Source: a virus (Duplodnaviria > Caudoviricetes). From it: 56,888 bases of DNA. Of the stretch, positions 21,601-52,106 are shown one piece after another. The stretch covers positions 1 to 56,888 of IMG/VR virus record IMGVR_UViG_3300023292_000011. One strand, 5' to 3'. The notes below the pieces were generated by a model. That model did no database searches, was not told the DNA's origin, and saw nothing but the letters and a program-made list of their open reading frames with translations. The position numbers and the translations under genes were made by a program. Positions within the stretch are counted from its first letter, which is position 1. Each line of letters starts with the position of its first letter.

Positions 21601-24600
21601 AATATTGACAAAGAAATAGAAAATGCTTGGAAAGAAGTTAAGAGGGCACAAGGTAAAATACTTGGCGGTTTAGTACCAATGAACGCACCGCTTGTTAAAG
21701 CTTCTGTTAAGCTCATTAAAGCTTGCTTTAAAAAAGGTATATATAAACTACAAGACATAACTAAAAGTGTTCTCAGTAGAGTTACAGCAGATAAAAGAAA
21801 CGATTATATAAAAGGATTAAAGCAAGCAATGAATCAGCTCATAGATGATCCTAACACTGATACATCTAAAGTTGGTATGACTAAGGATGAAGTTAATGCT
21901 TATGATCCTGATAAAGTTGTAGAGCCTATTAAGATTGATACAAAAGAAATAAAGAAATCTGAAGTTAAGAAAACTGAAAAGATTGAAACTAAACCTACTG
22001 GAAATATAGAAGATAACAGAGTGTTTAAGTCTCTTGAAAACTCAAGACAGCTTTCTAAAATAAAAAGAAAAATAACTGCAAAGAAAATTTTTAAATCATT
22101 AAAAAGAAACTTAATTGATGAATCAGGCAATTTAAAAGATAAACTACTTGAAACTCCATTAGGTAAAAAAGCAGTAAAATATCAAGAGTTAATGGCAGGT
22201 GCTACTTCAAAGGCTGAACTTCAAATAGATAAAGCTCACAACGATATATATAAAGATCTTACGAAAAAAGAAAAGACAAATTATTTAGATACTTATGTTT
22301 TTGCTAAAAGGTCTATTGAAATATTGAAAAGAAAACCTAATTTTACAGTACAAGCAAATGCTTCCATAGCAGAACTTGAAGCTTTAATAGATGAAATACC
22401 AGATAATGTTATGAAGAAAATAGAGTCTAAGGCAAGTATTTATTGGAAGACACTTGATAGTCAATTAAATCAATTAAAAGAAGCAGGACTTATTACAGAA
22501 AAAGGAATTAAAAGATTAAAAGAAACAGGTGAATATTATTCTCCAAGAGAAGTTCTTGATTATATAGATCCTGACGGAACTTTTTATGATGGCAATGGAA
22601 AAATAACTATTCCTGATAGTGGTATAAAAAAACTTACTGATGAAGGTAGTTTAAGACTTGTAGAAACTGACACAGCATATTTGCTCACATCTGTAATATC
22701 AAGAACTCAAGCAAGAATATCTAAAAATAAAGCAAATGTAGCATTATATGAAATGGCAAAATCTAATCCTGATAACGAAATAGTTACTATTGCTAAAAAA
22801 GATGAAGACCTTCAACCTGGATTTGAAAAGATAAGTGTTATGATAGATGGTAATAAAGAACAATTAATTATGCCATCTGACTTAGCTGTTGAGTGGGTTA
22901 AAAGTAATCCTATATTAAATTCTTTTCAAGCCGAAGTATTAAGTTTAGCAACAGGAACTAAAATTTTAAAAACAATGGCTACTGGTATAAATCCTGAATT
23001 TGTAATTACAAACATGCCAAGAGATATTGCACATATATTTTTATCCACAAATGAATTTTCTCCAACATCTCCTATTGCCGCTGCTCAAATGGCAAAAAGA
23101 CTTTCAGAAGTATTTTCAGATGCAATAAAAAGAAAAGGTCGCTATATTGATTTTATAAACGAAGGTGGTGGAATGGGTTTTCTTACACATCAAGGTAGAA
23201 TTTTTGAAAGAAATATAAACTCAGAAATATCTAAAATCCAAGATGTATTAGGCTATTCAGGAGAAACTTCAGAAATACTTACAAGATTAGCATTAAGAGA
23301 ACAAGCACTTATAAATATTGCAAAAGAAAAAGGTGTTAAAATTTCAGAGCTTTCATTAGAAGATAGAGAAGAAGCAACATGGATAGCAAGAGGCTATCTT
23401 GATTTCTCTCAAGGTGGTAGAATGGCGAAAGCTTTAAACAGTGGCCTTCCATATATAAATGCAAGGATTCAAGGCACAAGAGGTATTTTTAGGGCTTTTA
23501 AAGAAAGACCTGTTCAAACTACTTATAAAGCGGTACAGATTGGAATTGTAAGTTCTCTTCTTTATATGTTGAATTTAGGAATAGATGAAGATGAATATGA
23601 TAAAATATCTCCTTCTGATAAAAGAAATTATTTCAATATATTAGTACCTAACAGCGATTATAAAGATAAAGAAGGAAACAGTAGAAAAGTTTATGTAAAA
23701 ATAGCAAAAGACCAAGGACAAAGAACTATAAGTTATATATTTGAAGCATTGACCGCGAAAGCGTTAGGAAAAGAAATTGATGTAAACCAAATAGTTGAAA
23801 CAATTAAAGACCTTTCACCATATATACCTTCTCAAGATTTACCTCCATTCGTAGATGCTTTTATTTCTTATGGTTCAAATATAGATTTTTGGAGAGGTCA
23901 ACCTATTTGGAAAAAAGAAAAAGTAGAAGCAGGTGCAGAACAAACTTCTTATACACATCCTTTTTTCAGAGCTATAGGAGATAAAACAAACTTGTCTCCT
24001 AATAGATTAAAAGTTGCTCTTGAACAAGTTTTCACATCAGGAAATATTTATACATCAGCAGCAGATTTAGCTTGGAATAAACTTTTCGGGAAAGACAAAA
24101 TAGATGATACTGTAATTCAGAATAAAATATTAAACTTTCCTTTTATACGCAAATTTATGAAAAAGACTGATTCTTATAATAAATATCAAAAGAAAATAGA
24201 TGAAGCTAAAATTAAAGCTAATACAAAAAAATATAGAAACACACTTAAATTAGATGATATGATTCAAGATTATTTCAATGAAAGAAAAACTAAAGAAGAG
24301 GTAAATACTTTTATAGAAAACCAAGAGACTCCTTTAGAAACAAAAAGATTGAAAAGAAGGTTTTCTGATAGTGAAAAGTTAAAAGATATTCCTGATAGAA
24401 GATGGTGGTTTGGAATTAAAGAACTCTCTCCTGAAATAAAAGCACAACAGTTTTGGTTAAGATGGTCTCAATCAAATGATGCTGAAAAGAAACAGTTAAA
24501 AGAAACATTAGATAAATTTCCTGGAATGAAGTCTAAAAGGTTTCTTAAAGCTTTAAACGCAAGAACTGAAAGAGATGAAAAATTTGAACAGGCTTCTAAA

Positions 24601-24648
24601 AAATCTGGTAGAATTAGAACAACAAGGCGAAGAGTGAAAAGAAGATAA
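15646..24648 (+). CDS. 3000-aa internal virion/ejection polyvalent protein with beta-clamp-like, SAM-methyltransferase and LPD38-like regions
   Basis: Gly-rich hydrophobic segment near aa 460-505; QATNG..EFP..INP..FIMPIR; VLDYGSG..SNVLN; NPEFVITNMPRD, LDFSQGG and PYINARIQG C-terminal motifs. Confidence 0.75.
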   Translation: MASSRYVYDKLMANEPAFKALTEQERQTAADDIANQRTTQEESPEPVQGGLSSIQRNQSLPSLSESISLPELSQPQQPQQQQVQPDNETNSIFMNGQKTVFGGDETAVKNVIDYDDTIDFVDKFNPLKEKGIAPEKAAVSAFAYGAIKNKIQNVSLKKLLQTGRETFKQRLKTLVPTATDNVVDNMTNNAFRRVAKGDVTLNDFFVEAGQTNSVNAPTMESVQVDASQGPSASTAREGKDIAEFIYKNVKADESDRKFASKNYYEYLMFQDENNLINENEKVKLDYINTKMDMSLDIADDNEYEISKKSLMNDIFNIIPEKSMQSFEYRGDVRESKIEQVSDNVEVKDEESLDTDQYFDVNNMDQYDDATIAQAMSVLGKRASSILGDFLPAKIGSTIKGKDVKLEDVGAIDKFIARNMKEGATTRTLTPEERKKVVIPLPYVDDITLGTVEDAAESLAFSLSNLLVTGSAALVGSAIGAGEGSLVSPGVGTAIGAGLGLVGGIASTKRQIENDFLRDMRARFLEANPGPITPELKEKWNKTKKLLDKHAEFRGWWEAGPETVGNLLTMGMFRLPVGKAIGAIPGLKSDTAKLIGSALIKTSFAQSTELLGETVTEVKQSEDDAKLGLIKKPLTYNEAFKRVAPGTIIQGLLSASGGKVTTELESKIKKYFPKKDKNKTNQTDNEKLDKLQAQEADRGVEVDLTEQTKPEVIAEDIDNLDALFAEAEATFEPAETETKPEVEPVVDKVQQKPVIEPIQEKIQSETKIESVKEDINVKEKPLVETVKDKVEPKKKEIIKPNEKQIKIINILKKTTSLFKQNFLSSTPEAIKKYIDSLKDSLMVGEELNIKNVGVNTDKLKTFMSNHIKKIIKKTGVSDGDINIIYKRLTDEINKAGNELVPIKNLLDNVIKKASNEIRTGTVQENINREASLSLKQNKKKLKYYQGEIDANLNRTKEYKKEIKEYKKRKENYKGQWDSSIKLRERFIKENKNRLVEYKEKIETFNKKIKELNIETGKIIGKTNFDIESKKEVEPVHETAISRAMKLAKEKKANKKPLVEAVKTKVEAKKQKTIITPQKQEVQPEAKIEPVKVKPTLKETVKQKVAVKKADKYTFDIPKDKFSIYKVNTPKGVKYAVKLPKELSQSFSDPFYDTIEIAEKEQTFEIEKEKRNIAFNKKQEIIKTEETIKKKEQENVDGFDKDMPKMRRGQVIKALNKMFNFDGKLMTRKEKVRELVNDNAKISVEEVDKIQPMTRLASNRANQREQDAHEQRIKDSGKKKIYYVGGYDLGKTAYDYANHLMEKKTSVGDMSEKNVTSKGNLIAGEYYGKNFPESFISKLKELLSGVLPKTPKKKEDKIIIPGLAKVIDIDVTPIKKKIKKSNNPIEEIIIPFADKTREKIQYSGVFFDKKNQRIQATNGGIFITVEADVKEGGIFEIDKNNKKLTGKKLNAEFPYASEIIDNSSNQKYKQMKTDDLLDKARGMSAVEKLLQNKDDVLAKIKQGDLELRINPNNLQKALETFKKLGIDEIEVSIKEAYEPMRIRDANNKKNIAFIMPIRNSFAKVTTSFDLNNPTGKQDTKLQAVDKDIDDTWNKLNKENNKRLGMNPLPSLKATVLTTKLVYNYAKKGMYIFEDIINDLKNKFGVVSEKIKNNIKNILSKSPIKTKSGTKIKRYKNIVGKEIGGKIYVHKKYADKVIPKQLLNNAKKILNESNPEFKYNAISYDKKTDTVRFDEAPDFNSATEPTIGNYISITQNKEVSKGSSNSIWHHKWLWVTDDYNGFNVYDSKNRSRYWLSKINGKASGSKTIFEQQLKANDENKENEIFTDTFSEQAGKTARPWKVTKTYKAALEIIKDGDNVLDYGSGPFQKVKSSVKSKGGKYFAFDRYGNIGDISFLKNKDVVMGSNVLNTAVYADNPTKAYHEALNEMASALKPNGTLVVNMPSSGPQATWMNSIGLENDLKNIFKNVKRKGEVVFASGLKEKSIRNINIDKEIENAWKEVKRAQGKILGGLVPMNAPLVKASVKLIKACFKKGIYKLQDITKSVLSRVTADKRNDYIKGLKQAMNQLIDDPNTDTSKVGMTKDEVNAYDPDKVVEPIKIDTKEIKKSEVKKTEKIETKPTGNIEDNRVFKSLENSRQLSKIKRKITAKKIFKSLKRNLIDESGNLKDKLLETPLGKKAVKYQELMAGATSKAELQIDKAHNDIYKDLTKKEKTNYLDTYVFAKRSIEILKRKPNFTVQANASIAELEALIDEIPDNVMKKIESKASIYWKTLDSQLNQLKEAGLITEKGIKRLKETGEYYSPREVLDYIDPDGTFYDGNGKITIPDSGIKKLTDEGSLRLVETDTAYLLTSVISRTQARISKNKANVALYEMAKSNPDNEIVTIAKKDEDLQPGFEKISVMIDGNKEQLIMPSDLAVEWVKSNPILNSFQAEVLSLATGTKILKTMATGINPEFVITNMPRDIAHIFLSTNEFSPTSPIAAAQMAKRLSEVFSDAIKRKGRYIDFINEGGGMGFLTHQGRIFERNINSEISKIQDVLGYSGETSEILTRLALREQALINIAKEKGVKISELSLEDREEATWIARGYLDFSQGGRMAKALNSGLPYINARIQGTRGIFRAFKERPVQTTYKAVQIGIVSSLLYMLNLGIDEDEYDKISPSDKRNYFNILVPNSDYKDKEGNSRKVYVKIAKDQGQRTISYIFEALTAKALGKEIDVNQIVETIKDLSPYIPSQDLPPFVDAFISYGSNIDFWRGQPIWKKEKVEAGAEQTSYTHPFFRAIGDKTNLSPNRLKVALEQVFTSGNIYTSAADLAWNKLFGKDKIDDTVIQNKILNFPFIRKFMKKTDSYNKYQKKIDEAKIKANTKKYRNTLKLDDMIQDYFNERKTKEEVNTFIENQETPLETKRLKRRFSDSEKLKDIPDRRWWFGIKELSPEIKAQQFWLRWSQSNDAEKKQLKETLDKFPGMKSKRFLKALNARTERDEKFEQASKKSGRIRTTRRRVKRR

Positions 24649-31268: not shown

Positions 31269-31466
31269 ATGAAAGTACATTATTTTGAACAAGAAAAAGC
31301 AGATGAAGATGATGGTATTTTAAATATGGCTAAAGCACAAGGGTATGTGCCTTGCACTTGTTTATTAGGTGGCAACACTGTAATGGGATTAGTTCTTTCT
31401 GGTCATAACCCTTGCAGCGGTTGTAAGTGTGATAGAGCTAAATGCAAAAGCGACTTTAAATCATGA
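31269..31466 (+). CDS. Small Cys-rich hypothetical protein
   Basis: GAGG RBS; PCSGCKCDRAKC. Confidence 0.6.
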   Translation: MKVHYFEQEKADEDDGILNMAKAQGYVPCTCLLGGNTVMGLVLSGHNPCSGCKCDRAKCKSDFKS

Positions 31467-32455
31467 CAGATACAAGAATGAAAACCACTTATTCACTTTG
31501 GGCTTTATTCAAGAATTGCAGAAAGAAATGTGAAATAAGGTACTTGCTTGAATATGTGTCACCTGATAAGAATGATAATTTCACATACGGTACACTCATA
31601 CATAACTGCTTAGAACACTGGTACAAGACTGACGAAAGAAACTTTGATGCTGAACTTACTGAAGCTGAATTGAAGATAGACCAAGAAATAAAATCTATTG
31701 CAATGATGGATGAATACTTAAATGTATATCCTACTGAAGATTTTAAAGTAATTGAAGTTGAATATGAGTTTGAAGATGACATTATTAATCCAGAAACAGG
31801 ACACAAGAGCAGAAGCTTTAAACTTGGCGGTAAGGTAGATGGAATAGTTCAGAAACCTGATGGCACATACTGGATACTTGAGCATAAGACAGCAAGCACT
31901 ATTGATGCAGGATATATCAGTAAGTTATGGACTGACTTTCAAATACTGCTCTATGCTTATTCCGTTGAAAGAACTCTTGACATCAAAATAGAAGGTATTA
32001 TTTATAACATACTTGGTAAGTGTGGTTTAAAGATGGGTAAGGGTGAATCAGAAGCGGAATATCAGACAAGATACGATGTTCTTGTTGCTAAATCTAAATC
32101 AGGTAAGAGTTCAGCTAAACGAAAGATGTCAGAAACAGAAGATATGTTCTTTGATAGATGCACAGAGTGGTATCAGGATAAGTCAAATCAGGTATTTCAT
32201 AGAGAGGAGATACTATTAGATAGAAATAGAATAAAAGAGCTTCAGATAGAATTATGGGATCTTACAAAGAGTTTCCTTGAAGCACAAAAGAGAGGAGTGT
32301 TTTATAAAAACAATACATTTTGTACTCAATTCAATAGTCTTTGTGAGTATTATCAATATTGTTCTTCAGGAGAGAACCCAATGATACTTGAGAACTTCTT
32401 TATAAAAAAAGAAGCACATGAAGAATTAACAACAGAAAAAGAAAAAGTATTTTAA
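31463..32455 (+). CDS. PD-(D/E)XK exonuclease (RecB/Cas4-like)
   Basis: GTLIH, LGGKVDG..ILEHKT, QILLY; one N-terminal plus three C-terminal Cys. Confidence 0.9.
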   Translation: MTDTRMKTTYSLWALFKNCRKKCEIRYLLEYVSPDKNDNFTYGTLIHNCLEHWYKTDERNFDAELTEAELKIDQEIKSIAMMDEYLNVYPTEDFKVIEVEYEFEDDIINPETGHKSRSFKLGGKVDGIVQKPDGTYWILEHKTASTIDAGYISKLWTDFQILLYAYSVERTLDIKIEGIIYNILGKCGLKMGKGESEAEYQTRYDVLVAKSKSGKSSAKRKMSETEDMFFDRCTEWYQDKSNQVFHREEILLDRNRIKELQIELWDLTKSFLEAQKRGVFYKNNTFCTQFNSLCEYYQYCSSGENPMILENFFIKKEAHEELTTEKEKVF

Positions 32456-32553
32456 TGGGAGAACATTCTAATTATTTGATAGAAGAATATTACAATAATT
32501 TATTAGACGATAATTATGGATATCCCACAGAAGAAGATTATGAAGGAGATAAA

Positions 32554-33303
32554 ATGTTACCAACAAAAAAATCAGAAATAATTACAGATTTCAGTCAGTA
32601 TAGCATATTAATGTATGGAATAGCGAAAATAGGAAAGAGTACATTCTGTTCTAACGCAGAAAAAGCATTGTTCATTGCAACGGAACAAGGACTCAACACT
32701 CTTTCAGTATATAAGATAGATACATTAAATTGGCAAGAGTTCCTTGATGCTTGTGCATTGATAGCAGAAGGTAAGCATGATTACAAAACAATAATCATTG
32801 ATACAGTAGATAATCTTTATACATTCTGTGAAGAATACATTTGTAAAAAGTATGGTGTTGATGCTCCTAATGATGGGGTTCTTAGTTTCGGTAAAGGTTC
32901 AGCACTTATACTTAATGAGTTCAGAAGAGTTTTGAATAAGCTTGCAAGTATGCCTTACGGACTCATAATGACAAGCCATGCTTATGACAAGGATGTAGAT
33001 GATCGTACAGGCAAGTACACAAAAACAGTTCCCACAATACCAGATGCAAAGAAAAGCAGCCCTTACAGGTTTATTACAGGCTTTGTTGATATGATTCTAT
33101 TCTGTTCACAGGAGAAGGCTAAAGTTGATGGAGAACTTAAAACGGTAAGAGTGATTAATACAAAACCTTCAATGAGTTTTGATGCAGGAGACAGATCAGG
33201 TAAGTTACCTGCTAAGTTACCATTGGACTTTAATAAATTCATAGCATACTTCAACACAGCAACAAAAACAAATACAATCACAACAAAGAAAGAGGTAAAA
33301 TAA
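32554..33303 (+). CDS. Sak4-like AAA ATPase / single-strand annealing protein
   Basis: Walker A GIAKIGKS, Walker B IIIDT; AAGGAG RBS before ATG 32554 (ORF track starts at 32455). Confidence 0.85.
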   Translation: MLPTKKSEIITDFSQYSILMYGIAKIGKSTFCSNAEKALFIATEQGLNTLSVYKIDTLNWQEFLDACALIAEGKHDYKTIIIDTVDNLYTFCEEYICKKYGVDAPNDGVLSFGKGSALILNEFRRVLNKLASMPYGLIMTSHAYDKDVDDRTGKYTKTVPTIPDAKKSSPYRFITGFVDMILFCSQEKAKVDGELKTVRVINTKPSMSFDAGDRSGKLPAKLPLDFNKFIAYFNTATKTNTITTKKEVK

Positions 33304-33752
33304 TGTTAGATCTTACAGTTTATGATGAAATTTATGAAGCAACAGAAGTAGAAGAGCAGAAGACAGACTTTAAACCAATACCTGATGGCAATTACAATGT
33401 TATGATAATGGAAGCTGAACTTGAAGAAACCAAAGAGTCAAGAAAGCCTATGATTGTGCTTCAAATGAAAGTTATGGTAGGCAATCATACAAACAGAGTT
33501 CTTTTCAAAAACTCAGTTATCAATTCAGCAAAAAGCCTTAAATATATCAAGAAAGATTTTGCAGTATGTGGACTGAAACTTGATAAATTCTCAGATATTG
33601 AAAACAGAGTAAGTGAACTCATAGGACTTAAACTTGAAATTTATGTAAAAAATAAAGGTGAGAACCAGAATGTTTATATCAACAAGTGCATAGATGATAT
33701 GTCCATTGATGAAAGTAACAGTATTACTTCAGGTTACAGTAATCCGTTTTAG
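33303..33752 (+). CDS. DUF669-like ssDNA-binding protein
   Basis: FKPIPDGNY motif, C-terminal NPF, follows the Sak4-like gene. Confidence 0.8.
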   Translation: MLDLTVYDEIYEATEVEEQKTDFKPIPDGNYNVMIMEAELEETKESRKPMIVLQMKVMVGNHTNRVLFKNSVINSAKSLKYIKKDFAVCGLKLDKFSDIENRVSELIGLKLEIYVKNKGENQNVYINKCIDDMSIDESNSITSGYSNPF

Positions 33753-33778
33753 CATAAACCATTGCAAGCGGTTTGACT

Positions 33779-33787
33779 TGCTATAAT
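33779..33787 (+). promoter_or_regulatory. Extended -10 promoter
   Basis: TGCTATAAT perfect TGnTATAAT, upstream of the first tRNA-like element. Confidence 0.5.
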
Positions 33788-33825
33788 TAATATTTTTAGT
33801 GGCCTTTTAATATTAATTTAAATGT

Positions 33826-33870
33826 TCAGCTGGCAGTGGTGCTTTACTTGGTTCGATTCCAGGCGGCTGA
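33826..33870 (+). ncRNA. Miniature tRNA-like element 1 (acceptor-like stem, small D-like hairpin, T-arm; no anticodon arm)
   Basis: TCAGCTG/CGGCTGA stem; GCA-GTGG-TGC; CTTGG-TTCGATT-CCAGG. Confidence 0.6.
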
Positions 33871-33939
33871 GTTTGAAAGGGAGGTAAATATGGAAAAGCA
33901 ATGCCGCCGGCATTTGTAAAAAGAATATAGGAGTGTGAT

Positions 33940-34212
33940 ATGATTACAAAAACATTTATATGTGATAAGTGCGGAAAATCAGTGGGTGAGACAGATCTCA
34001 TCAATCTCAAAATCAATGCAAAACTGGTAACCAGCCGCAGTCAACAGCTTGTAGAGAAAGACATTTGTAAAGAATGTCTGAAGACCAAGGGTATCTTAAC
34101 TGAGAGAAAAGAAGGTACTTCCTCTGAAGATCTAATGGTAAACAACGCCAAAACATTTAGAGACAAGTTTATAGAGCTCTTGAATGATCTCGAAGTGGTA
34201 TTCGAGGAGTAG
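33940..34212 (+). CDS. Zinc-finger hypothetical protein
   Basis: CDKCG...CKEC; AGGAG RBS. Confidence 0.7.
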   Translation: MITKTFICDKCGKSVGETDLINLKINAKLVTSRSQQLVEKDICKECLKTKGILTERKEGTSSEDLMVNNAKTFRDKFIELLNDLEVVFEE

Positions 34213-34220
34213 CTTATATT

Positions 34221-34278
34221 TCAGTCGGCTATGGTTAGCAACATCCCGAATGTTTCAGGTTCGATTCCTGGCGACTGA
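34221..34278 (+). ncRNA. Miniature tRNA-like element 2 (compact cloverleaf)
   Basis: TCAGTCG/CGACTGA stem; GCTA-TGGT-TAGC; AACAT-CCCGA-ATGTT; TCAGG-TTCGATT-CCTGG. Confidence 0.65.
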
Positions 34279-34296
34279 GTTTGAAAGGAGAATGTT

Positions 34297-34593
34297 ATGA
34301 AAGAAAAAACAGAATATTTGATAATGGAACTATCTAATGTCACTTTGACTTGTCCTTTTTGCGGAAATACAGGACATATAGCTTTACTCGAAAACGAGTT
34401 TCAAAAGTTAGAACATGCTTTTGAAACAAGATTCTTTAATTTATATAACGCAATAAAATGCAATAAATGTTCAGCTAAGGGGCCAAGTATAAGCGGTGGG
34501 CGGTGTAGTTATGGCACGGTTGGGTACTATAGTGAGATAAAAGAAGCAGTTAAATTGTGGCAGCAGCAACTTAAAATTTTGTATAAAATGTAA
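34297..34593 (+). CDS. Lar-like restriction-alleviation zinc-finger protein
   Basis: CPFCG...CNKCSAKGP...EAVKLW pattern. Confidence 0.6.
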   Translation: MKEKTEYLIMELSNVTLTCPFCGNTGHIALLENEFQKLEHAFETRFFNLYNAIKCNKCSAKGPSISGGRCSYGTVGYYSEIKEAVKLWQQQLKILYKM

Positions 34594-34792
34594 AAATGCT
34601 TATGTTTCTCAGTTTGAAAGGGAGGTAAGCAATGAAAGTTTCTATCCTTGTTATAGTTGGCACTGTCGCGCGACGAACAGCAAGAGAAGGTAAAGATATT
34701 GCTGATAACACAAGTGCAAAAAGAGGTTAATCCTTGACTGAGTATCTTGCAAGTCGCATGGAAAAAGTTATTGCTTTAGAGGATGATAAGTA

Positions 34793-35926
34793 ATGAATAT
34801 TTTATCACTTTTTGACGGTATGAGTTGCGGACAAATAGCACTTAATGAGCTTGGCATAGATTATGATAATTATTATGCGAGTGAAATAGACAAATATGCT
34901 ATGAAAGTTACTCAAGCTAATTATCCAAATACTATTCAATTAGGTGATGTTGTGAAAGCTTCTAATCATCTCGGGGTATTCCCTGATATGCTCGGTAAGA
35001 TAGATTTGCTTATGGCAGGAAGTCCATGTCAAGGATTCAGTTTCGCAGGTAAACAATTAAACTTTGAGGATGATAGAAGTAAGTTATTTTTTGAATTTAT
35101 TAAAATTAAAAATGCAGTTAAGCCTAAATATTGGTTGCTTGAAAATGTGAAGATGAAAAAAGAATATCAGGATGTGATTTCTAAATTGCTCGGCGTTCAG
35201 CCTATTCAGATTAATTCAGCTTTAGTGTCAGCACAAAACAGAAAAAGATTATACTGGACAAATATCCAAAATATATTACAGCCAGAAGATAAAAGTATTA
35301 TGCTAAAGGATATAGTACATGAATATCTTGATGAAATATTGGATATCAATATTGACACTTTTAATATAAATCCATCTGGAAAAGGAATGAATGGAAATGT
35401 TTATTCTATAAATAAGCCTAAAAGTAATTGTTTAACTACAAATAAAGGAGAAGGTTCAAGAATGTCAGTTGCAATAGCTGAATATATTGTTCCATTTGAT
35501 AAAACTCTTCAAATATTAGATAAAGAAGTTGAAAGAGGTAAAGTAGGTTATTTTAGAAAAGATTCTCAGGCTAATAGAGTTTATTACATACATGATAAGG
35601 CAGTAACATTATGCGGTGATGCAGGTGGTGGTGCAGCAAAGATGGGTCAGTATTTATTTGGTTGCATAACACCCGATAGGATAAACAAAAGACAGAATGG
35701 ACAACGATTTTCAGATGGAAAGAAATTTTATACTCTTACAGCACAAGACAAGCATGGAGTTTTAATTGAAGGATATATAAGGAAACTTACACCGATAGAG
35801 TGCGAGAGACTTCAAACAGTGCCAGATAATTATACTAATCATGTCAGCAACTCTCAGCGTTACAAAATGCTTGGCAACGGTTGGACAATAGCAGTAATAA
35901 AGCACATACTTAAAAATATCATTTGA
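34793..35926 (+). CDS. DNA cytosine-C5 methyltransferase
   Basis: SLFDGMSC, GSPCQGFS, ENV, QNRKRLYW, RKLTPIECERLQ, LGNGW. Confidence 0.95.
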   Translation: MNILSLFDGMSCGQIALNELGIDYDNYYASEIDKYAMKVTQANYPNTIQLGDVVKASNHLGVFPDMLGKIDLLMAGSPCQGFSFAGKQLNFEDDRSKLFFEFIKIKNAVKPKYWLLENVKMKKEYQDVISKLLGVQPIQINSALVSAQNRKRLYWTNIQNILQPEDKSIMLKDIVHEYLDEILDINIDTFNINPSGKGMNGNVYSINKPKSNCLTTNKGEGSRMSVAIAEYIVPFDKTLQILDKEVERGKVGYFRKDSQANRVYYIHDKAVTLCGDAGGGAAKMGQYLFGCITPDRINKRQNGQRFSDGKKFYTLTAQDKHGVLIEGYIRKLTPIECERLQTVPDNYTNHVSNSQRYKMLGNGWTIAVIKHILKNII

Positions 35927-35971: not shown

Positions 35972-36128
35972 AGGTGACGGCAAGCACCTTTTGCAAGGAT
36001 AGGAAACAACGACATGAACAATAAAATTAATAGCCTTTTAGGGTATAAAAATATAGAGAAGACTTACTTGCGACTTGCCAAAATCGTTTCCGAGTCTTTT
36101 CTTTTTTTTATCCCTATTAGGCTTTTTT
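35972..36128 (+). promoter_or_regulatory. Structured leader/attenuator upstream of the initiator gene
   Basis: Hairpin loop ACGGCAAG complementary to CTTGCC inside a long hairpin ending AGGCTTTTTT. Confidence 0.6.
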
Positions 36129-36146
36129 ATTATCAGGAGGTTTGTA

Positions 36147-37286
36147 ATGAATAAACTTACAGGAATTTTTTCAAAAGGATATGGCATTATTCCAAAGGCT
36201 TTTATGAAAGATAAAGAAATATCTAAAAACGCTAAATTGATAATGGCTTATTTCTTGTCTTTTACAGGAGGAGGTAAAATAGAATGTTATCCTAAAGTGG
36301 AAACTATAACAGAAGACTTAGGCATAGCAAGAGCAACTTTCTTCAAATCAATAAAAGAATTAGAGGAGTTAAATTTACTTTCAAAAGTTAAAAAAATACC
36401 AAATAGTCCTATACAATCTAACAAATATATCATCAAAATGATTGATTTTACTCAGAGTTCACCCAGTGAATTGCCAAGGGCAACGAATGTTACCACCCAG
36501 AGTTCAGCCAGTGAACTCTCCATACTTAATAATAACATACTTAATAATAACAAGCTTAATAATAGGAAAGAGTCTAAAGACTCTTATTATGTTGAAACAA
36601 GCTCAACATCTTCTTTTACGGAAAAGAAAGTAGAAGAATCAGAATCCAAAAGTACACCGTACAAGGAAGTCTTTGAGTTCTACCAGACCCTTGGTTTAAT
36701 AAAACATAGAAAATACATTCCTGCTATGAGAAGAGCAATGGAAAAGGCTAAAAGGGATTTAGGTGTAGATGCAGAAGAAATGAAAAGAATGCTTCAAAGA
36801 CATAAAGATAGAGTAGAAACTTCTAAGGGCTTTAAGGTAAAAGGTGAATCAAGATCCGTAAAAGCAAGAACTCTAAGCACCTTCTTCGGTCAAACTAAAT
36901 GTAATAGCATAGAATTAATATGTGCTGAGTATACAGATGATGCATTTAAAACTAAAATATATTCAAATAAAGGAGCTCTCCATGTAAGAGACATCGTAAA
37001 AGAAGAAAAGGAACAGTCCTTCGCATTACACAGAGCAGAGCAAGAGAGAGAGTTCATAAAAGAACGAAACATATATGATAGAGTTGGCAGAAGATTTGAT
37101 GAAAGAGATAAAGCTAAAGAGGATGCTGAATATCAGATAGCAGCAAAAAGAGGAGACACACAGTTTCCTTCTAAGTGGAGACTTCTAATAGCAACATACG
37201 CTAAGTCACCTGAAGATTATAATGCAAAGATAGCGTATTCAGTAAAGAACCAGGGTGTACCAGAAGAGTACATGAGAGAGGGATGA
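36147..37286 (+). CDS. Replication initiator with N-terminal winged HTH (lambda O/DnaD-like role)
   Basis: AGGAGG RBS before ATG 36147; YGIIPK..ISKNAKLI..CYPKVETITEDLGI..IKELEELNLL; internal iterons. Confidence 0.8.
   Translation: MNKLTGIFSKGYGIIPKAFMKDKEISKNAKLIMAYFLSFTGGGKIECYPKVETITEDLGIARATFFKSIKELEELNLLSKVKKIPNSPIQSNKYIIKMIDFTQSSPSELPRATNVTTQSSASELSILNNNILNNNKLNNRKESKDSYYVETSSTSSFTEKKVEESESKSTPYKEVFEFYQTLGLIKHRKYIPAMRRAMEKAKRDLGVDAEEMKRMLQRHKDRVETSKGFKVKGESRSVKARTLSTFFGQTKCNSIELICAEYTDDAFKTKIYSNKGALHVRDIVKEEKEQSFALHRAEQEREFIKERNIYDRVGRRFDERDKAKEDAEYQIAAKRGDTQFPSKWRLLIATYAKSPEDYNAKIAYSVKNQGVPEEYMREG
36450..36565. other. Putative replication origin inside the initiator gene
   Basis: Two ACYCAGAGTTCASCCAGTGAA repeats followed by three AT-rich 15-mers (CATACTTAATAATAA x2, CAAGCTTAATAATAG). 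Confidence 0.65.
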
Positions 37287-39053: not shown

Positions 39054-40862
39054 ATGAAACCTTCTGAACTAAAAGAACAAATAGGATATCAAGCAAAGGA
39101 TATCATTCTACAAGGCTTATCTAAGAAAGAAAAGTCCGGAAAGATACTTTGCCCTTACCATGATGATAAGAATCCCTCTATGTCATGGGATAAAGAACAT
39201 AACTGCTTTAAATGTTTTGCTTGTGATGAAAACATGGATATATACAGATACTACATGGACTTCAAAGGTATGGACTTTGCAGAATCTATGGAAAAGGCAG
39301 CAAAAATAATAAATGTTAAAATTGAAGTTCACAAAAAGAGTATTGAAACAAAGAAAACATTTAAATCAGCAAGAATAGGCTATGATGAACTTACTCCTGA
39401 TGCAATAATCTTTGCAATAAACAGGCACATATCAGAAGATACTTTAAGAGCATGGAATGTTAAGAGTTCTGTTAAGCCTTCAAATGAATGGCTTGTATTT
39501 CATCATTATGATGAAAATAATAAACTTGTATTCAACACTTTTAGAAGTATAAAGTCTAAAGATTTTTTGAGACAGCCTGGTACAAAATCTATTTTATGGG
39601 GTATTAATCATATTGATGTTGAAAAGCCTGTTTTGATTGTAGAAGGTCATTGTGATTGCCTTGCTGTATGGCAGAGTGGCTTTAAGAATGTCGTAAGCAT
39701 ACCGTCAGGAGCAAAAGAACTTTCATGGATAGAGAATTGTCACGATTGGTTAAAAGTGCTTGTAAGGGTGGTTGTGTGGGCTGATAACGATACACCTGGT
39801 TTAAAGTGTGCTGAAACCATAAGATCAAGAATTGGTAGAGAAAAGTGTACAATAGAAGTTAATCCTGATTTTAAGGATGCAAATGAGTTCTTAAAATGTA
39901 GAGGTGAACATGATCTTTATAAATTCATAGAAGAAATAATGAGAGAAAAAGTATCTGGCTTAATAAATATGTCCAGAAGGAAAGATAAGACAAGGGCAAG
40001 TACATCATTCTATTCTGGCTTTTACGAAGTGGATAAACACTTTAGAAAGTTCTCTGGTGGTGATCTTACAATACTCTTTGGTAGAGATAATGAAGGTAAG
40101 TCTACATTCATGTCACAGATGCTTGCTACAGTCTTAAAGACACAAAGAGTATTCTTATATTCAGGTGAGCTTACAGAAAATAGAATAGAAGAATGGCTTA
40201 TGAGACAGCTTGTAGGCAGCGATTCAAGTATGTTCTACACTCTTGCAGATGAATTTCAGAATATAGATTATTTCATTAAACCAGAAGCTAAGAATAAGAT
40301 TAAAAAATGGTATGAAGATAAGTTTTATGTATATGAAACTAAAGTTGAAATGTCAGATACAAATAAATTATTTAATGTAATGACAAGAGGATTTAAAAAG
40401 TTTGGTATAAAGTTTTTTGTAATAGATAACTTAATGACTGCATTAGATGAAAGTTCTTCAGATGAAAATAAAAATCAAACAGCATTTGTAAAACAATGTA
40501 AACAGTTTTGTCTTGCTTTTGACACTCATATAATTGTTGTAGCACATCCAAATAAAACAGGCAGTGCAGAACAAACACCATTGTTTAAGTATCACATATC
40601 AGGAAGTAAGAATATTAGTAACATTGCTGACAATATACTTGCAGTAGAGAGAATCTGGAAACAGGACGAAGAGGCAAATGATTGTTATAAGAAAAAAGAC
40701 CTTAGTGGAATATACTATTCTGCATTGATAAGAAGTTTAAAGGATAGAGTGGGAGCAGGTAGAAAAGAATTTTATTATCACTTTGATCCTGTAAGTAATA
40801 GGTTTTATAATGAACTTACTTTTCAGAATGAAGATTATGGAATATTTAAGGGAGGAAAATGA
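39054..40862 (+). CDS. Bifunctional primase-helicase (zinc finger + TOPRIM + SF4 helicase)
   Basis: CPYHDD..CFAC; VEGHCD, WADND; Walker A GRDNEGKS, FVIDNL, VAHP, ISGS. Confidence 0.92.
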   Translation: MKPSELKEQIGYQAKDIILQGLSKKEKSGKILCPYHDDKNPSMSWDKEHNCFKCFACDENMDIYRYYMDFKGMDFAESMEKAAKIINVKIEVHKKSIETKKTFKSARIGYDELTPDAIIFAINRHISEDTLRAWNVKSSVKPSNEWLVFHHYDENNKLVFNTFRSIKSKDFLRQPGTKSILWGINHIDVEKPVLIVEGHCDCLAVWQSGFKNVVSIPSGAKELSWIENCHDWLKVLVRVVVWADNDTPGLKCAETIRSRIGREKCTIEVNPDFKDANEFLKCRGEHDLYKFIEEIMREKVSGLINMSRRKDKTRASTSFYSGFYEVDKHFRKFSGGDLTILFGRDNEGKSTFMSQMLATVLKTQRVFLYSGELTENRIEEWLMRQLVGSDSSMFYTLADEFQNIDYFIKPEAKNKIKKWYEDKFYVYETKVEMSDTNKLFNVMTRGFKKFGIKFFVIDNLMTALDESSSDENKNQTAFVKQCKQFCLAFDTHIIVVAHPNKTGSAEQTPLFKYHISGSKNISNIADNILAVERIWKQDEEANDCYKKKDLSGIYYSALIRSLKDRVGAGRKEFYYHFDPVSNRFYNELTFQNEDYGIFKGGK

Positions 40863-41026: not shown

Positions 41027-41243
41027 AAGCAAGTGGTGAAATGGTAAACACTATTACTGGTAAGAGAGATTGATTATTGTTGTTGTTCGGTTCTTAGTAA
41101 TAAGAATGAAACTTATACGGAACAACGTGTTAGGCATAAGGGGCCACCTACTAAACACATTTTGCAATATACCAGACTGAAAGAATCCCGGTTACATCTT
41201 TCAGGTGACTAATCTCATGCAGGTTCGAATCCTGCCTTGCTTT
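41027..41243 (+). ncRNA. ~216-nt tRNA-framed structured RNA
   Basis: AAGCAAG/CTTGCTT acceptor-like stem, D-arm GTG-AAATGGTAAA-CAC, T-arm GCAGG-TTCGAAT-CCTGC, ~165-nt multi-hairpin insert. Confidence 0.7.
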
Positions 41244-41252
41244 TAAGATTAT

Positions 41253-41325
41253 GCAGGATTAGCTCAACTGGTAGAGCGTCGCCCTTTGACGGCGAATGTT
41301 AAAGGTTCAAATCCTTTATCCTGTG
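41253..41325 (+). tRNA. trnQ: tRNA-Gln (anticodon TTG), no encoded CCA
   Basis: GCAGGAT/ATCCTGT, GCTC/GAGC, TCGCC-CTTTGAC-GGCGA, AAAGG-TTCAAAT-CCTTT. Confidence 0.9.
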
Positions 41326-41334
41326 AAACAAACA

Positions 41335-42949: not shown

Positions 42950-43125
42950 AGAATGATCAGATAAGAAGACTAAAAAAATTAGATGCAATGATTTCTAATT
43001 TCGAGAAAAATGGACTGTTTCAAATGCAGTGTCATTTTGAAAAAGAAAGAAGAAAACTGCTCAACAACATTAGAGGCATTAGCATTGATAGGAGAAGCAA
43101 TGAAACAAATACCATTTCCGAATAA
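42946..43125 (+). CDS. Hypothetical 59-aa protein (not in track)
   Basis: ATGA overlap with the previous gene; open to TAA 43123-43125. Confidence 0.45.
   Translation: MKNDQIRRLKKLDAMISNFEKNGLFQMQCHFEKERRKLLNNIRGISIDRRSNETNTISE
43055..43111. repeat. 57-bp direct repeat, copy 1
   Basis: 55/57 identical to 43656-43712. Confidence 0.9.
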
Positions 43126-43642
43126 AAAATATCAGATAATTTATGCTGACCCACCGTGGTCATATAGAGATAAAGCCCTTGCAGGGAATAGAGGGGCTGG
43201 TTGTAAATATCCAACTCAAGAAAAGGATTGGATAGACAATCTGCCAGTGTCGGAAATAGCAGATAAAAATTGTATTCTGTTTTTGTGGGTAACAATGCCA
43301 AAATTAAATGAGTGTTGGCAACTCATAGAAAAATGGGGGTTTGAGTATAAAACAGTTGGATTTACTTGGGTTAAAAAAAACAAAAAAGCACCCTCTTGGT
43401 TTTGGGGTATGGGGAGGTGGACAAGAGCCAATGCGGAATTGTGTTTAATTGCCACAAAAGGGAAGCCAAAGAGAATAGATGCAGGAGTTCATTCTGTTAT
43501 TGACACTCCTATTCAAGCACACAGTCAAAAACCAAATGAAGCAAGGGAACGAATTATTAAACTTATGGGTGATTTGCCTCGCATAGAACTATTTGCCAGA
43601 GAGAAAACAGATGGGTGGGATGTTTGGGGCAATGAAGTATGA
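43100..43642 (+). CDS. MT-A70 family N6-adenine methyltransferase
   Basis: IIYADPPW, LFLWVT, WGFEYKT, HSQKP, IELFAR; AGGAG RBS before ATG 43100. Confidence 0.92.
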   Translation: MKQIPFPNKKYQIIYADPPWSYRDKALAGNRGAGCKYPTQEKDWIDNLPVSEIADKNCILFLWVTMPKLNECWQLIEKWGFEYKTVGFTWVKKNKKAPSWFWGMGRWTRANAELCLIATKGKPKRIDAGVHSVIDTPIQAHSQKPNEARERIIKLMGDLPRIELFAREKTDGWDVWGNEV

Positions 43643-43655
43643 AAATATATAAAAT

Positions 43656-43712
43656 AACTGCTCAACAACATTAGAGGCATTAGCCTTGATAGGAGAAACA
43701 ATGAAACAAATA
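43656..43712. repeat. 57-bp direct repeat, copy 2
   Basis: Matches 43055-43111. Confidence 0.9.
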
Positions 43713-44237
43713 TTTGATAATATACATAAACTGTTAATAAGTTTGGAAGAGTCGTTTATAGAGCTTAAAATTAAAGTTGAAGAACAAATAGAGCTTAAAA
43801 TTAAAGTTGAAGAACAAACGGAAGATAAAAAGATTGACACTCACAAATACATTACATCAGCCTCAGATGTTGCTCCATGGCAATATTATATTGATGAACA
43901 CAATAGAATCCTTAAATTTTATAAAATTTATATGAACGAAAACTTTATGAGATTATGCACGGATTCGGGTGAAGCAATAGAAATATATAGAACATCAGTT
44001 TTAGATGAAAATAAATTCAGGGTTGCTAAGATACATGAGATTCCTGAGCATTGTCTTATTGGCAAGAAAGTCAGAGCGTGGGATACAGATTATTCCAAAT
44101 CTGAAAATGTGTGTGGGATATTGGTTAATGTATATAGAGATGACGCATACCCTTATACGATTTGTGATGTTGACGACAGAGGCACCCGTTATCATTATAA
44201 AAACATCGAGTTGATAGATGATTCAATTAACTATTAG
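43701..44237 (+). CDS. Hypothetical protein with tandem IELKIKVEEQ duplication
   Basis: AGGAG RBS before ATG 43701; perfect 30-bp tandem repeat at 43758-43817. Confidence 0.65.
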   Translation: MKQIFDNIHKLLISLEESFIELKIKVEEQIELKIKVEEQTEDKKIDTHKYITSASDVAPWQYYIDEHNRILKFYKIYMNENFMRLCTDSGEAIEIYRTSVLDENKFRVAKIHEIPEHCLIGKKVRAWDTDYSKSENVCGILVNVYRDDAYPYTICDVDDRGTRYHYKNIELIDDSINY

Positions 44238-44634: not shown

Positions 44635-44844
44635 ATGAACTTAATAATAAATGATTGCACAGAATATTCTATGTGCTGTTTGTGTAAGAAGAGAGCGGAG
44701 CCCTTGCACGAGATTAAGCCAGATATATCTGGCATAAGAAACTGTATTATTCTATGCAATTATTGCATAGAAGAGATTGCCCTTAAAACGGTGGGCTCTA
44801 AAAATGAGAGAAACAACTTTTTAAAAGTATTGGAGAGAATATGA
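44635..44844 (+). CDS. Small zinc-finger protein
   Basis: CCLC...LCNYC. Confidence 0.55.
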   Translation: MNLIINDCTEYSMCCLCKKRAEPLHEIKPDISGIRNCIILCNYCIEEIALKTVGSKNERNNFLKVLERI

Positions 44845-45047
44845 AAATAACAGCAGAAACTAATGCAATACCTAAAAAAGAAACATATCCTGTAATTAAA
44901 GAGAATCATAATGGGGTTATTGTCCTGTTTACAAAACAATGCACAGGAGTATGTTTAAGCCCTAATAATATTGGTGATTTTTCTGAAACATGGTGGGAAA
45001 GAGATTTTACAATAATTCCAGATAGTATAACATTGTATCAAGAATAG
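44841..45047 (+). CDS. Hypothetical protein, paralog A
   Basis: Similar to 45788-46006. Confidence 0.7.
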   Translation: MKITAETNAIPKKETYPVIKENHNGVIVLFTKQCTGVCLSPNNIGDFSETWWERDFTIIPDSITLYQE

Positions 45048-45787: not shown

Positions 45788-46006
45788 ATGAAAATAACAT
45801 TTAAATGCAATGCAATACCTAAAAAAGAAACATATCCTGTAATTAAAGAGAATAGTAAAGGGACTATCATACTGTTTACAGAACAATATACAGGAGTATG
45901 TTTATCTTCTAAGGATGACTTCTATAAAATAGGACACAGTTCAGGAGAGTGGAATGAAAAAGTTTTCACAATAATTCCTGATAGCGTAACACTGTATCAA
46001 AAATAG
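45788..46006 (+). CDS. Hypothetical protein, paralog B
   Basis: Similar to 44841-45047; AAGGAG RBS. Confidence 0.7.
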   Translation: MKITFKCNAIPKKETYPVIKENSKGTIILFTEQYTGVCLSSKDDFYKIGHSSGEWNEKVFTIIPDSVTLYQK

Positions 46007-49453: not shown

Positions 49454-49535
49454 GGTTTGCCTTCTTTCTTTATCCAGGACTTGAGACCTGAACTGTCCTT
49501 TAATATCGGATGTATAGTCCGATACCTCTCAGGGA

Positions 49536-52042: not shown

Positions 52043-52106
52043 GCAGGGCTTGAGACCTGCTAAGCCCTTTAATAAGAGAGCAATTAAACCCTCTTATCTC
52101 TCAGGA
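52043..52106 (-). ncRNA. Twister ribozyme candidate (P5-type permutation)
   Basis: CCU-GAGAG-AUAAGAG..CUCUUAU-UAA-AGG-GC-UUA-GCAGG(UCUCAAGC)CCUGC. Confidence 0.75.

What the first reader, a model, noticed from the sequence alone, without database searches (positions are those of the whole stretch)
33826..34632. Miniature tRNA-like elements fused to a conserved RBS leader between genes
Seen: two elements (33826-33870, 34221-34278) have 7-bp closing stems (TCAGCTG/CGGCTGA and TCAGTCG/CGACTGA, pairing kept despite substitutions), a GG-loop mini D-arm and a canonical TTCGATT T-loop. Element 1 lacks an anticodon arm; element 2 has a non-canonical one. Each is followed at once by GTTTGAAAGG(G)AG and an ATG, and a third bare copy of that leader sits at 34612-34625. 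Established: RNase P and RNase Z recognise the acceptor/T-arm elbow. Inference: tRNA mimics used as mRNA processing or stabilising tags, as decoys for anti-phage tRNA nucleases, or as cassette recombination boundaries.
Basis: partly seen in the sequence, partly recalled or inferred. Interest (0 to 1): 0.72.

Follow-up and report, generated by a model that had tools for sequence, protein, structure and literature searches.

The report
Mini tRNA mimics bounding phage gene cassettes
Two very small tRNA-shaped sequences, each fused to a strong ribosome-binding leader, sit between accessory genes of a salt-lake phage and mark the points where related phages have swapped gene cassettes; they probably also act as RNA-cutting signals, which has not been tested.

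Summary
E1 (33826-33870, 45 nt) and E2 (34221-34278, 58 nt) have a 7-bp acceptor-like stem, a 5-bp T stem with loop TTCGATT and a small GG hairpin. Each is followed at once by GTTTGAAAGG(G)AG and an ATG. A bare leader lies at 34612-34625. ARAGORN and Rfam call neither a tRNA.

E1 and E2 differ at 7 of 24 stem bases, yet all 12 pairs hold (two double compensatory changes). Random substitution does this in under 0.6% of trials. G-U pairs make the fold specific to the sense strand.

The elements occur only in this phage lineage: the window, one sister phage and salt-lake metagenome variants. None was found in 80 loci of more distant relatives, and no ordinary tRNA shares their 3' end.

Comparison shows cassette gain, loss and relocation with breakpoints inside the shared 3' block and leader, or just after the ATG. 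Degenerate copies exist.

Best reading (0.45): a repeated intergenic module whose tRNA-like top half is a constrained RNA signal, probably for RNase P/Z processing, and whose repeated sequence drives cassette exchange. Main rival (0.3): relic tRNA-derived sequence with no RNA role. No RNA data exist. I rate it a new variant of known kinds, interest about 0.55.

The parts
33764..33787 (+). Hairpin GCAAGC-GGTTTG-ACTTGC after the DUF669 stop, overlapping an extended -10-like TGcTATAAT (33779-33787). Possible promoter placing E1 in a 5' UTR. This is inferred.
   Evidence: Read. The hairpin is listed, where it is scored on the minus strand. The consensus promoter scan did not list a -35/-10 pair here.
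33826..33870 (+). E1: a 45-nt tRNA 'top half' mimic with a 7-bp acceptor-like stem, a 3-bp GG hairpin, a TTTA linker and a T arm with loop TTCGATT. It has no anticodon arm.
   Evidence: (59.5 bits with model R1). Identical in L003.
33871..33919 (+). Leader GTTTGAAAGGGAGG (strong SD), ATG at 33890 and a 9-codon mini-ORF. The crossover zone with the sister phage ends at 33895.
   Evidence: Variants of the mini-ORF appear in L003 and in run X4 (table 5c).
33940..34212 (+). Cassette gene, 90 aa, a small CxxC...CxxC protein of unknown function.
   Evidence: Only weak family hits.
34221..34278 (+). E2: a 58-nt linker-less cloverleaf with a 7-bp acceptor-like stem, a 4-bp GG hairpin, a 5-bp arm with a 5-nt loop, and a T arm with loop TTCGATT.
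   Evidence: z -2.37; 81.1 bits. Identical in L009. Population variants fall only in the anticodon-like arm.
34279..34299 (+). Leader GTTTGAAAGGAG and the ATG (34297) of the 98-aa gene.
34297..34593 (+). Cassette gene, 98 aa, weakly Lar-like (restriction alleviation) zinc-ribbon protein.
   Evidence: PF14354, E 0.0046, below cut-off. (phrog_599, E 3.8e-4).
34596..34634 (+). Element-less copy of the module: GCTTATGTTTCTCAG + GTTTGAAAGGGAGGTAAGCA + ATG. Its 5' flank resembles the 5' flank of E2 (GCTTATATTTCAG). Divergence from L009 starts at 34641.
   Evidence: family D15.
34632..34730 (+). 32-aa ORF, a remnant. L009 has a 77-aa ORF here that shares only the first 9 nt and the 3' end.

Best explanation
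E1 and E2 are paralogous copies of a repeated intergenic module: a miniature tRNA mimic followed by a strong Shine-Dalgarno leader and an ATG. The module punctuates an array of small accessory genes (Lar-like protein, PAPS-reductase-like protein, DNA methyltransferases). The array lies just downstream of the recombination genes of a phage known from salt-lake metagenomes.

Shown: the acceptor-like and T stems are under pairing constraint on the sense strand. Shown: the 3' block plus leader (about 30-50 bp), or the first codons behind it, is where close relatives have gained, lost or relocated cassettes.

Inferred mechanism at the RNA level: the element is transcribed inside the early polycistronic mRNA and folds into a 12-bp acceptor/T coaxial stack with a GG elbow hairpin. 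The host's tRNA-end enzymes then treat it as a CCA-less pre-tRNA. RNase P cuts at its 5' edge (33825/33826 and 34220/34221). RNase Z or an equivalent cuts after the discriminator G (33871 and 34279). Each cassette is thereby separated into its own mRNA, whose 5' end lies a few bases ahead of a very strong SD.

Inferred mechanism at the DNA level: the repeated copies give the phage's own recombination module (PD-(D/E)XK nuclease, AAA_24/Sak4-type ATPase, DUF669) short homology for cassette exchange. Degenerate copies are left behind as scars.
For: Structure. Seven of the 24 stem bases differ between E1 and E2, yet all 12 pairs are kept. Two changes are double compensatory (C-G to U-A; U-A to A-U) and three are single and wobble-compatible. 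Random substitution keeps all 12 pairs in 426 of 1,000,000 trials at equal rates, or 5,139 of 1,000,000 with transition bias. E1 has 2 G-U pairs and E2 has 1; these would be A-C mismatches on the other strand, so the fold is specific to the sense strand.

The 7+5 bp stack, T loop TTCGATT, a GG in the small hairpin, U at position -1 and no encoded CCA are all read. In run X5, the three substitutions and one insertion listed within E2 for the variant contigs all lie in the 15-nt anticodon-like arm (34245, 34248, 34253, and an A inserted after 34248). None is listed in the remaining 43 nt. This matches E1 lacking that arm altogether.

Not a decayed local or host tRNA. Of 60 loci around AAA_24 homologues, 0 have a tRNA downstream of the module and 3 have tRNAs elsewhere. 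Of 15 genome-contig hits to the 3' end GGTTCGATTCCNGGCGNCTGA, 0 are called tRNA. The same pattern in IMG/VR finds only the sister phage.

Recombination. The sister contig L003 is 99% identical up to window 33895 (E1 + leader + ATGGAA). It then carries a 306-aa PAPS-reductase-like gene (phrog_424, E 6.5e-56) and a degenerate element copy with leader, and rejoins the window from 33847 on. The indel is therefore bounded by a 49-bp repeat of the module. Run X2 has an E2-type block followed by the start of that same gene. Run X4 has an E2-type block followed by the mini-ORF that follows E1 in the window (tables 7 and 5c). L009 diverges from the window 9 nt after the ATG of the bare leader. A second repeated leader family (AAGAAAGGATTAAATAATG, 4 copies) also coincides with a homology boundary at 37731.

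Context. The recombination genes lie directly upstream. Two twister-P5 ribozymes occupy the same kind of stop-codon-to-RBS gap on the minus strand, so intercistronic RNA-cleaving elements are already a feature of this genome.

Precedent. [quoted passage not shown] B. subtilis RNase Z cuts CCA-less precursors 3' of the discriminator, and RNase P cleaves CCA-less precursors in vivo (PMC1874595, passages read).
Against: No RNA evidence exists: no processing, no ends, not even transcription has been shown.

E1's fold is not more stable than shuffles (39 of 200 fold as well).

Degenerate or element-less copies sit before ORFs all the same. These are: the L003 copy, which lacks the 5' acceptor strand, has T loop TTAGATT and has a U-U mismatch in the T stem; an X4 contig that keeps only GATTCCTGGCGACTGA + leader; and the bare leader at 34612. 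So the tRNA shape is not needed for every cassette.

E1's leader drives only a 9-codon ORF in the window.

Only two intact sequence types exist, so covariation rests on one pairwise comparison. The pairing could have been inherited from two functional tRNA ancestors.

No homologue was found outside the lineage: 0 further compact elements in 80 related loci, and pattern scans of IMG/VR and JGI metagenomes returned only the lineage or ordinary tRNAs.

The host, and therefore its RNase Z status, is unknown.
Confidence: 0.45

Rival explanations
1. Relic reading. The tRNA-like parts are leftovers of tRNA-derived sequence that hitch-hiked with a duplicated RBS leader. They have no RNA function of their own. 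The module's only roles are the SD leader and accidental homology for recombination.
For: Several copies are degenerate or element-less and still precede ORFs. E1's fold is no better than shuffles. The elements are confined to one lineage. The genome has other repeated plain leaders that also coincide with recombination boundaries. The E2 anticodon-like stem carries a pair-breaking variant in run X5 (34253 T>C).
Against: All 12 acceptor and T pairs survive 7 substitutions (under 0.6% of neutral trials). E2 is a linker-less perfect four-way cloverleaf, which random deletion of a tRNA is unlikely to leave. No ancestral tRNA was found: 0 of 60 related loci have one at that position, and 0 of 15 genome hits plus no IMG/VR hit outside the lineage share the 3' end.
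Confidence: 0.3
2. Protein-binding tRNA mimic next to the SD. One version is a translational operator bound by a host or phage tRNA-binding protein. Another is a decoy or sponge for defence enzymes that act on the tRNA acceptor end or elbow.
For: The mimic abuts the SD with no spacer. The cassettes are anti-restriction or DNA-modification type genes. The constrained part is the acceptor/T/GG-hairpin top half.
Against: No candidate binding protein was identified. There is no CCA-adding enzyme in the record. E1 has no anticodon arm and E2's is variable, which excludes decoys for anticodon nucleases. There are only two copies per genome, and they are embedded in mRNA. Nothing tests this reading directly.
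Confidence: 0.1
3. Folded single-stranded DNA site (attC-like), or the end of a small mobile element recognised by a dedicated recombinase. The bare leader would be an empty or precisely excised site.
For: Cassettes move between copies. The bare copy looks like E2 with everything between TCAG and TTTGAAAGG removed; AGT microhomology is read. G-T pairs are also tolerated in DNA hairpins.
Against: Neither a tyrosine nor a serine recombinase was found in the 56.9-kb record, although the record is estimated only 64% complete. The crossovers lie in homologous stretches of about 30-50 bp, or at the start codon, as expected for general recombination. The full tRNA T-loop consensus has no role in known attC sites (that statement is recalled).
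Confidence: 0.07

Closest known systems
t-elements of plant mitochondria, and more broadly the mitochondrial tRNA-punctuation model
   Same: Non-canonical cloverleaves that keep the GGTTCRANYCC T-arm motif, lie next to or between protein genes on the sense strand, and coincide with mRNA ends attributed to RNase P and RNase Z cleavage (PMC1920247, passages read).
   Different: The setting here is a phage. The elements are much smaller (45 and 58 nt against about 74), linker-less, and fused directly to a Shine-Dalgarno leader. Processing is not shown here. There is no sequence homology.
PeSL mobile regulatory cassettes of T4-type phages
   Same: Short repeated intergenic regulatory motifs in hyperplastic regions rich in non-essential genes. 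Recombination between copies explains insertions, deletions and replacements between close relatives (PMC2839356, abstract read; PMC4122927, search listing only).
   Different: PeSLs are a sigma-70 promoter plus a terminator stem-loop. This module is a tRNA mimic plus an SD leader. Mini-circles were not looked for here.
Canonical phage tRNA genes
   Same: 7-bp acceptor stem, 5-bp T stem and T loop TTCGATT. The same genome carries a real tRNA-Gln between ORFs at 41252-41326.
   Different: Bases 8, 9 and 26 and the variable loop are absent. The D loop has 4 nt. The anticodon arm is absent (E1) or has a 5-nt loop (E2). Neither ARAGORN in bacterial mode nor Rfam RF00005 calls them.
Other tRNA-like RNase P substrates: the phage P1/P7 C4 RNA precursor and mammalian mascRNA (both recalled, no call)
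   Same: Small tRNA mimics embedded in longer transcripts and released by tRNA-end enzymes.
   Different: They are unrelated in sequence and context. Rfam gave no match to any such family at E<=10.

Membership tests
Canonical tRNA gene | Recognised by tRNA finders or by the covariance model RF00005 | tested here: not met
   ARAGORN in bacterial mode finds none, even with relaxed -ps. Rfam finds none at the gathering score or at E<=10. Only the metazoan-mitochondrial mode calls E2.
Canonical tRNA gene | Anticodon arm with a 7-nt loop and U33, plus linker bases 8, 9 and 26 and a variable loop | tested here: not met
   E1 has TTTA in place of the arm. E2 has a 5-nt loop, or a 7-nt loop with C33 if one pair is opened. 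E2 has no linkers.
Canonical tRNA gene | 7-bp acceptor stem, 5-bp T stem and T-loop consensus | tested here: met
t-element-type tRNA-like processing signal (a functional class) | Non-canonical cloverleaf with a conserved T-arm motif, on the sense strand beside or between ORFs | tested here: met
t-element-type tRNA-like processing signal (a functional class) | Mapped RNA 5'/3' ends that coincide with the element's edges, and cleavage by RNase P/Z | not testable with these tools
   No RNA holder was listed for the region. The runs that were laid are DNA contigs.
PeSL-like mobile regulatory cassette | Repeated intergenic motif whose copies coincide with indel or replacement breakpoints between close relatives | tested here: met
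PeSL-like mobile regulatory cassette | Made of a strong sigma-70 promoter plus a terminator stem-loop | tested here: not met
   The consensus scan lists no promoter or plus-strand terminator at the elements. Only an extended -10-like TGcTATAAT lies upstream of E1.
Integron attC / site-specific recombination site | Cognate integrase or recombinase encoded nearby | tested here: not met
   PF00589 and PF00239: 0 matches each in the 56.9-kb record. The record is estimated 64% complete, so absence is not proven.

The most novel reading that the evidence does not exclude
A phage uses miniature (45-58 nt) tRNA top-half mimics, fused directly to Shine-Dalgarno leaders, as portable punctuation. Host RNase P/Z would cut each anti-restriction or DNA-modification cassette into its own mRNA. 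The same repeated tag would make the cassettes exchangeable by the phage's own recombination system. That would be a bacterial-virus counterpart of mitochondrial tRNA punctuation combined with an integron-like cassette array that needs no integrase.
Probability: 0.3. Interest if true: 0.75.

Novelty: new variant of a known kind. Interest (0 to 1): 0.55.

Why it matters
If the elements are processed, this would be a natural example in a phage of tRNA-type punctuation of mRNAs. That principle is known from organelles and is used in synthetic tRNA-guide-RNA arrays. It would also define a minimal natural substrate for tRNA-end enzymes: 45 nt with no anticodon arm.

Whatever the RNA role, the locus documents how short repeated regulatory modules mediate the turnover of anti-defence genes between nearly identical phages. 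Some breakpoints are resolved to within a few bases.

My four full-text searches and a fifth on truncated or armless tRNAs in phages listed no paper describing such elements in phages. This holds only for the open-access library searched.

Tried and rejected
- Phage GenBank collection, blastn of 33300-34800: no match.
- The search for related loci with the DUF669 protein alone returned only the sister contig.
- JGI metagenome pattern scan: 10 loci. Two belong to the lineage (L009, L014). The other 8 are ordinary-looking tRNAs that happen to be followed by GTTTGAAA.
- Genome-contig scan: 15 loci. By eye, 13 are GC-rich and look like coding sequence; this was not checked further. The 2 Pedobacter loci are non-coding, but there CGGCTGA belongs to a 12-bp downstream hairpin, and Rfam sees no tRNA. 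They were judged unrelated.
- The IMG/VR scan for GGTTAGCAACATCCCGA gave two unrelated matches, L110 and L111.
- A weak YrlA hit at 41218-41277 (22.5 bits against a gathering score of 69) comes from a T arm lying next to the D arm of the following tRNA.
- Sequencing runs: no RNA holder was listed, so expression and RNA ends could not be examined.
- No structure prediction or protein complex job was run; none bears on the question.
- I considered and dropped an attP-type fragment of a host tRNA: no tRNA has this 3' end, there is no integrase, and both acceptor strands are present.
- I considered and dropped a coding explanation: only short ORFs of 38 aa on the plus strand and 31-67 aa on the minus strand, with no support, cross the elements.

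Full report
WHAT THE WINDOW IS

The window is a whole IMG/VR virus record of 56,888 bases, classed as linear and estimated 64% complete by CheckV. Nearly all long ORFs are on the plus strand.

The finding lies just downstream of a recombination module: a PD-(D/E)XK nuclease (31463-32455), an AAA_24 ATPase (32455-33303) and a DUF669 protein (33303-33752). It lies upstream of a C5 DNA methylase (34793-35926), an HTH protein (36075-37286) and a primase-helicase (39054-40862).

Public runs that hold the region are labelled salt-lake metagenomes.

CHECK OF THE OBSERVATION

- E1 (33826-33870) reads TCAGCTG / GCA-GTGG-TGC / TTTA / CTTGG-TTCGATT-CCAGG / CGGCTGA.
- E2 (34221-34278) reads TCAGTCG / GCTA-TGGT-TAGC / AACAT-CCCGA-ATGTT / TCAGG-TTCGATT-CCTGG / CGACTGA.
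- E2 is a four-helix cloverleaf with no unpaired junction base.
- Both elements are followed at once by GTTTGAAAGG(G)AG and an ATG. A third leader without an element is at 34612-34625.

One correction is needed. The ATG behind E1 (33890) opens only a 9-codon ORF, and the 90-aa gene at 33940 has its own RBS.

The proposed folds are the ViennaRNA minimum-energy structures. E2 is more stable than shuffles (z -2.37; 6 of 200). E1 is not (z -0.87; 39 of 200).

ARAGORN in bacterial mode and Rfam call neither element. Only ARAGORN's metazoan-mitochondrial mode calls E2.

A scan of my own looked for a T loop TTCRANN, a 5-bp T stem and a 7-bp closing stem, with total length 38-67. It finds exactly these two elements in the window. 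In 300 dinucleotide shuffles the mean was 0.11 hits, and 2 of 300 shuffles had two or more.

IS THE FOLD CONSTRAINED?

E1 and E2 differ at 7 of the 24 acceptor and T stem bases, yet all 12 pairs remain standard pairs. Two changes are double compensatory. Three are single changes through G-U.

When 7 random substitutions are placed on E1's stems, all pairs survive in 426 of 1,000,000 trials at equal rates, or 5,139 of 1,000,000 with transition bias.

The G-U pairs (two in E1, one in E2) would be A-C mismatches on the complementary strand. The fold therefore belongs to the sense strand, which is the mRNA strand.

Variant contigs in run X5 add a smaller point. The substitutions listed within E2 are at 34245, 34248 and 34253, with an A inserted after 34248. 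All lie in the 15-nt anticodon-like arm, and one of them breaks a pair. None is listed in the remaining 43 nt.

Together with E1's lack of that arm, this points to constraint on the top half only: the acceptor/T stack plus the GG hairpin.

The caveat is that there is just one pairwise comparison. Pairing could also have been inherited from two functional ancestors.

DISTRIBUTION

The elements are confined to one lineage.

- Pattern scans of IMG/VR found only one other contig, L003, of 34,396 bases.
- The JGI metagenome scan found that same contig again, plus L009. L009 carries E2 identically and overlaps L003's end (both match window 33923-34049), so it may continue the same phage. The other 8 of its 10 loci are ordinary-looking tRNAs.
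- I fetched 80 loci around AAA_24 homologues of about 46-53% identity, apart from the sister contig itself.
- Neither my scan nor a covariance model built from E1 and E2 (1.26 Mb searched) found another copy there. The scan's single other hit, in L039, looks like chance.

No ordinary tRNA was found with the same 3' end.

- Of 15 hits among the genomes of 185,579 species, 0 are called tRNA.
- Of 60 related loci, 0 have a tRNA downstream of the recombination module.

So there is no sign that these are recently decayed copies of a host tRNA or of an ancestral tRNA at this position.

THE COMPARATIVE EVIDENCE

L003 is 99% identical to the window through E1, the leader and ATGGAA, up to window 33895. 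It then carries a 306-aa PAPS-reductase-like gene (PF01507, E 3.2e-25; phrog_424, E 6.5e-56).

After that gene comes a degenerate element copy. This copy lacks the 5' acceptor strand, has T loop TTAGATT, has a U-U mismatch in the T stem, and has a middle part like E2. The leader follows, and the contig rejoins the window from 33847 onward.

The indel is therefore bounded by a 49-bp repeat of the module.

Contigs of other salt-lake runs show further arrangements.

- An E2-type block is followed by the start of the PAPS-reductase-like gene (run X2).
- An E2-type block is followed by the mini-ORF that follows E1 in the window (run X4).
- A copy is reduced to GATTCCTGGCGACTGA plus the leader (run X4).

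L009 diverges from the window 9 nt after the ATG behind the bare leader. It carries a 77-aa ORF where the window has a 32-aa remnant, and a different DNA methyltransferase in place of the C5 methylase.

A second family of repeated plain leaders (AAGAAAGGATTAAATAATG, four copies) also coincides with a homology boundary at 37731.

No tyrosine or serine recombinase is encoded in the record. The breakpoints lie within homologous stretches. General or relaxed homologous recombination, perhaps by the adjacent phage recombination genes, is thus the simplest cause. That last step is inference.

HOW IT MOST LIKELY WORKS

I commit, at about 0.45, to a dual reading.

At the RNA level the element offers the 12-bp acceptor/T coaxial stack with a T loop and a GG hairpin. 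It has U at position -1 and no CCA. It therefore resembles a CCA-less pre-tRNA top half.

In B. subtilis, such precursors are cut by RNase Z 3' of the discriminator, and RNase P cleaves CCA-less precursors in vivo (PMC1874595, passages read). [quoted passage not shown]

Cleavage would leave the downstream cistron with a short leader that starts just ahead of a very strong SD.

This genome also places two twister-P5 ribozymes in the equivalent stop-codon-to-RBS gaps of its minus-strand genes. That makes intercistronic RNA cleavage a recurring theme here, though it is an analogy and not proof.

At the DNA level the repeats behave like the PeSL cassettes of T4-type phages (PMC2839356, abstract read).

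RIVAL READINGS

The main rival, at about 0.3, is that the tRNA shape is a relic and only the leader and its homology matter. The degenerate copies and E1's unremarkable folding energy support it.

Less likely readings are a protein-binding operator or acceptor-end decoy (about 0.1) and a site for a dedicated recombinase or mobile element (about 0.07). The bare leader does look like E2 with everything between TCAG and TTTGAAAGG removed.

One element has no anticodon arm, and the other has a variable one.

NOVELTY

The parts are known kinds: tRNA-like processing signals and repeated regulatory cassettes that drive modular shuffling. The combination is not among the papers listed by my searches. 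That combination is a 45-58-nt linker-less mimic fused to an SD leader, in a phage, at cassette boundaries.

The supplementary tables of PMC10690425 (10,006 candidate viral structured RNAs; passages of the main text read) could contain this motif.

I rate it a new variant of a known kind, with interest about 0.55. The structure and the recombination role are reasonably supported. The RNA mechanism is untested, and the element is known from one sparsely sampled lineage.

Noticed in passing
window 49475-49533 (-) and 52044-52105 (-): Two type-P5 twister ribozymes (45.8 and 42.6 bits; gathering score 37.6). Each sits exactly between the stop codon of one minus-strand gene and the RBS of the next.
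   Followed up: partly
window 41027-41245 (+); L009 6532-6648: An odd tRNA-like RNA just upstream of tRNA-Gln. It has a 7-bp acceptor-like stem AAGCAAG/CTTGCTT, a D-like hairpin with GG and a T arm GCAGG-TTCGAAT-CCTGC, but about 75-175 nt in between. The window carries 100 nt (41054-41154) that L009 lacks, flanked by AAACAC repeats. ARAGORN and Rfam do not call it. Unexplained.
   Followed up: partly
window 41252-41326 vs L009 6648-6733: At the same position the window has tRNA-Gln(ttg), while the sister phage has a different 86-nt gene that ARAGORN calls tRNA-Thr(agt). The tRNA slot therefore also appears to be swapped.
   Followed up: no
window 37497, 37728, 37983, 47163 (+); 51512, 52009, 52679 (minus-strand genes): Other families of repeated RBS leaders: AAGAAAGGATTAAATAATG in four copies, and AATACTGGGAGGTATT-type in three copies. 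One coincides with a homology boundary to L009 at 37731.
   Followed up: partly
window 34793-35926 vs L009 946-1587; L003 238-1158 (-); window 43010-43642: The variable cassettes are DNA-modification or anti-restriction type genes: a C5 methylase (window) against a different methyltransferase (phrog_757) in L009, a PAPS-reductase-like gene only in L003, and an MT-A70 methylase further on.
   Followed up: partly
window 43041-43111 / 43642-43712; 44841-45047 / 45788-46006; 43758-43817: Internal duplications: a 71-nt pair at 90% identity, a 117-nt pair at 85%, an 83-nt pair at 72%, and a perfect 30-nt tandem repeat.
   Followed up: no
window 15646-24648 (+): A single ORF of 3000 aa. It was not examined.
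   Followed up: no
L095 4890-5015 (-) and L108 (Pedobacter genomes): A conserved non-coding stretch with a T-arm-like TCCGG-TTCGATT-CCGGG followed by a 12-bp hairpin, upstream of a 240-aa ORF. Neither ARAGORN nor Rfam calls it a tRNA.
   Followed up: partly
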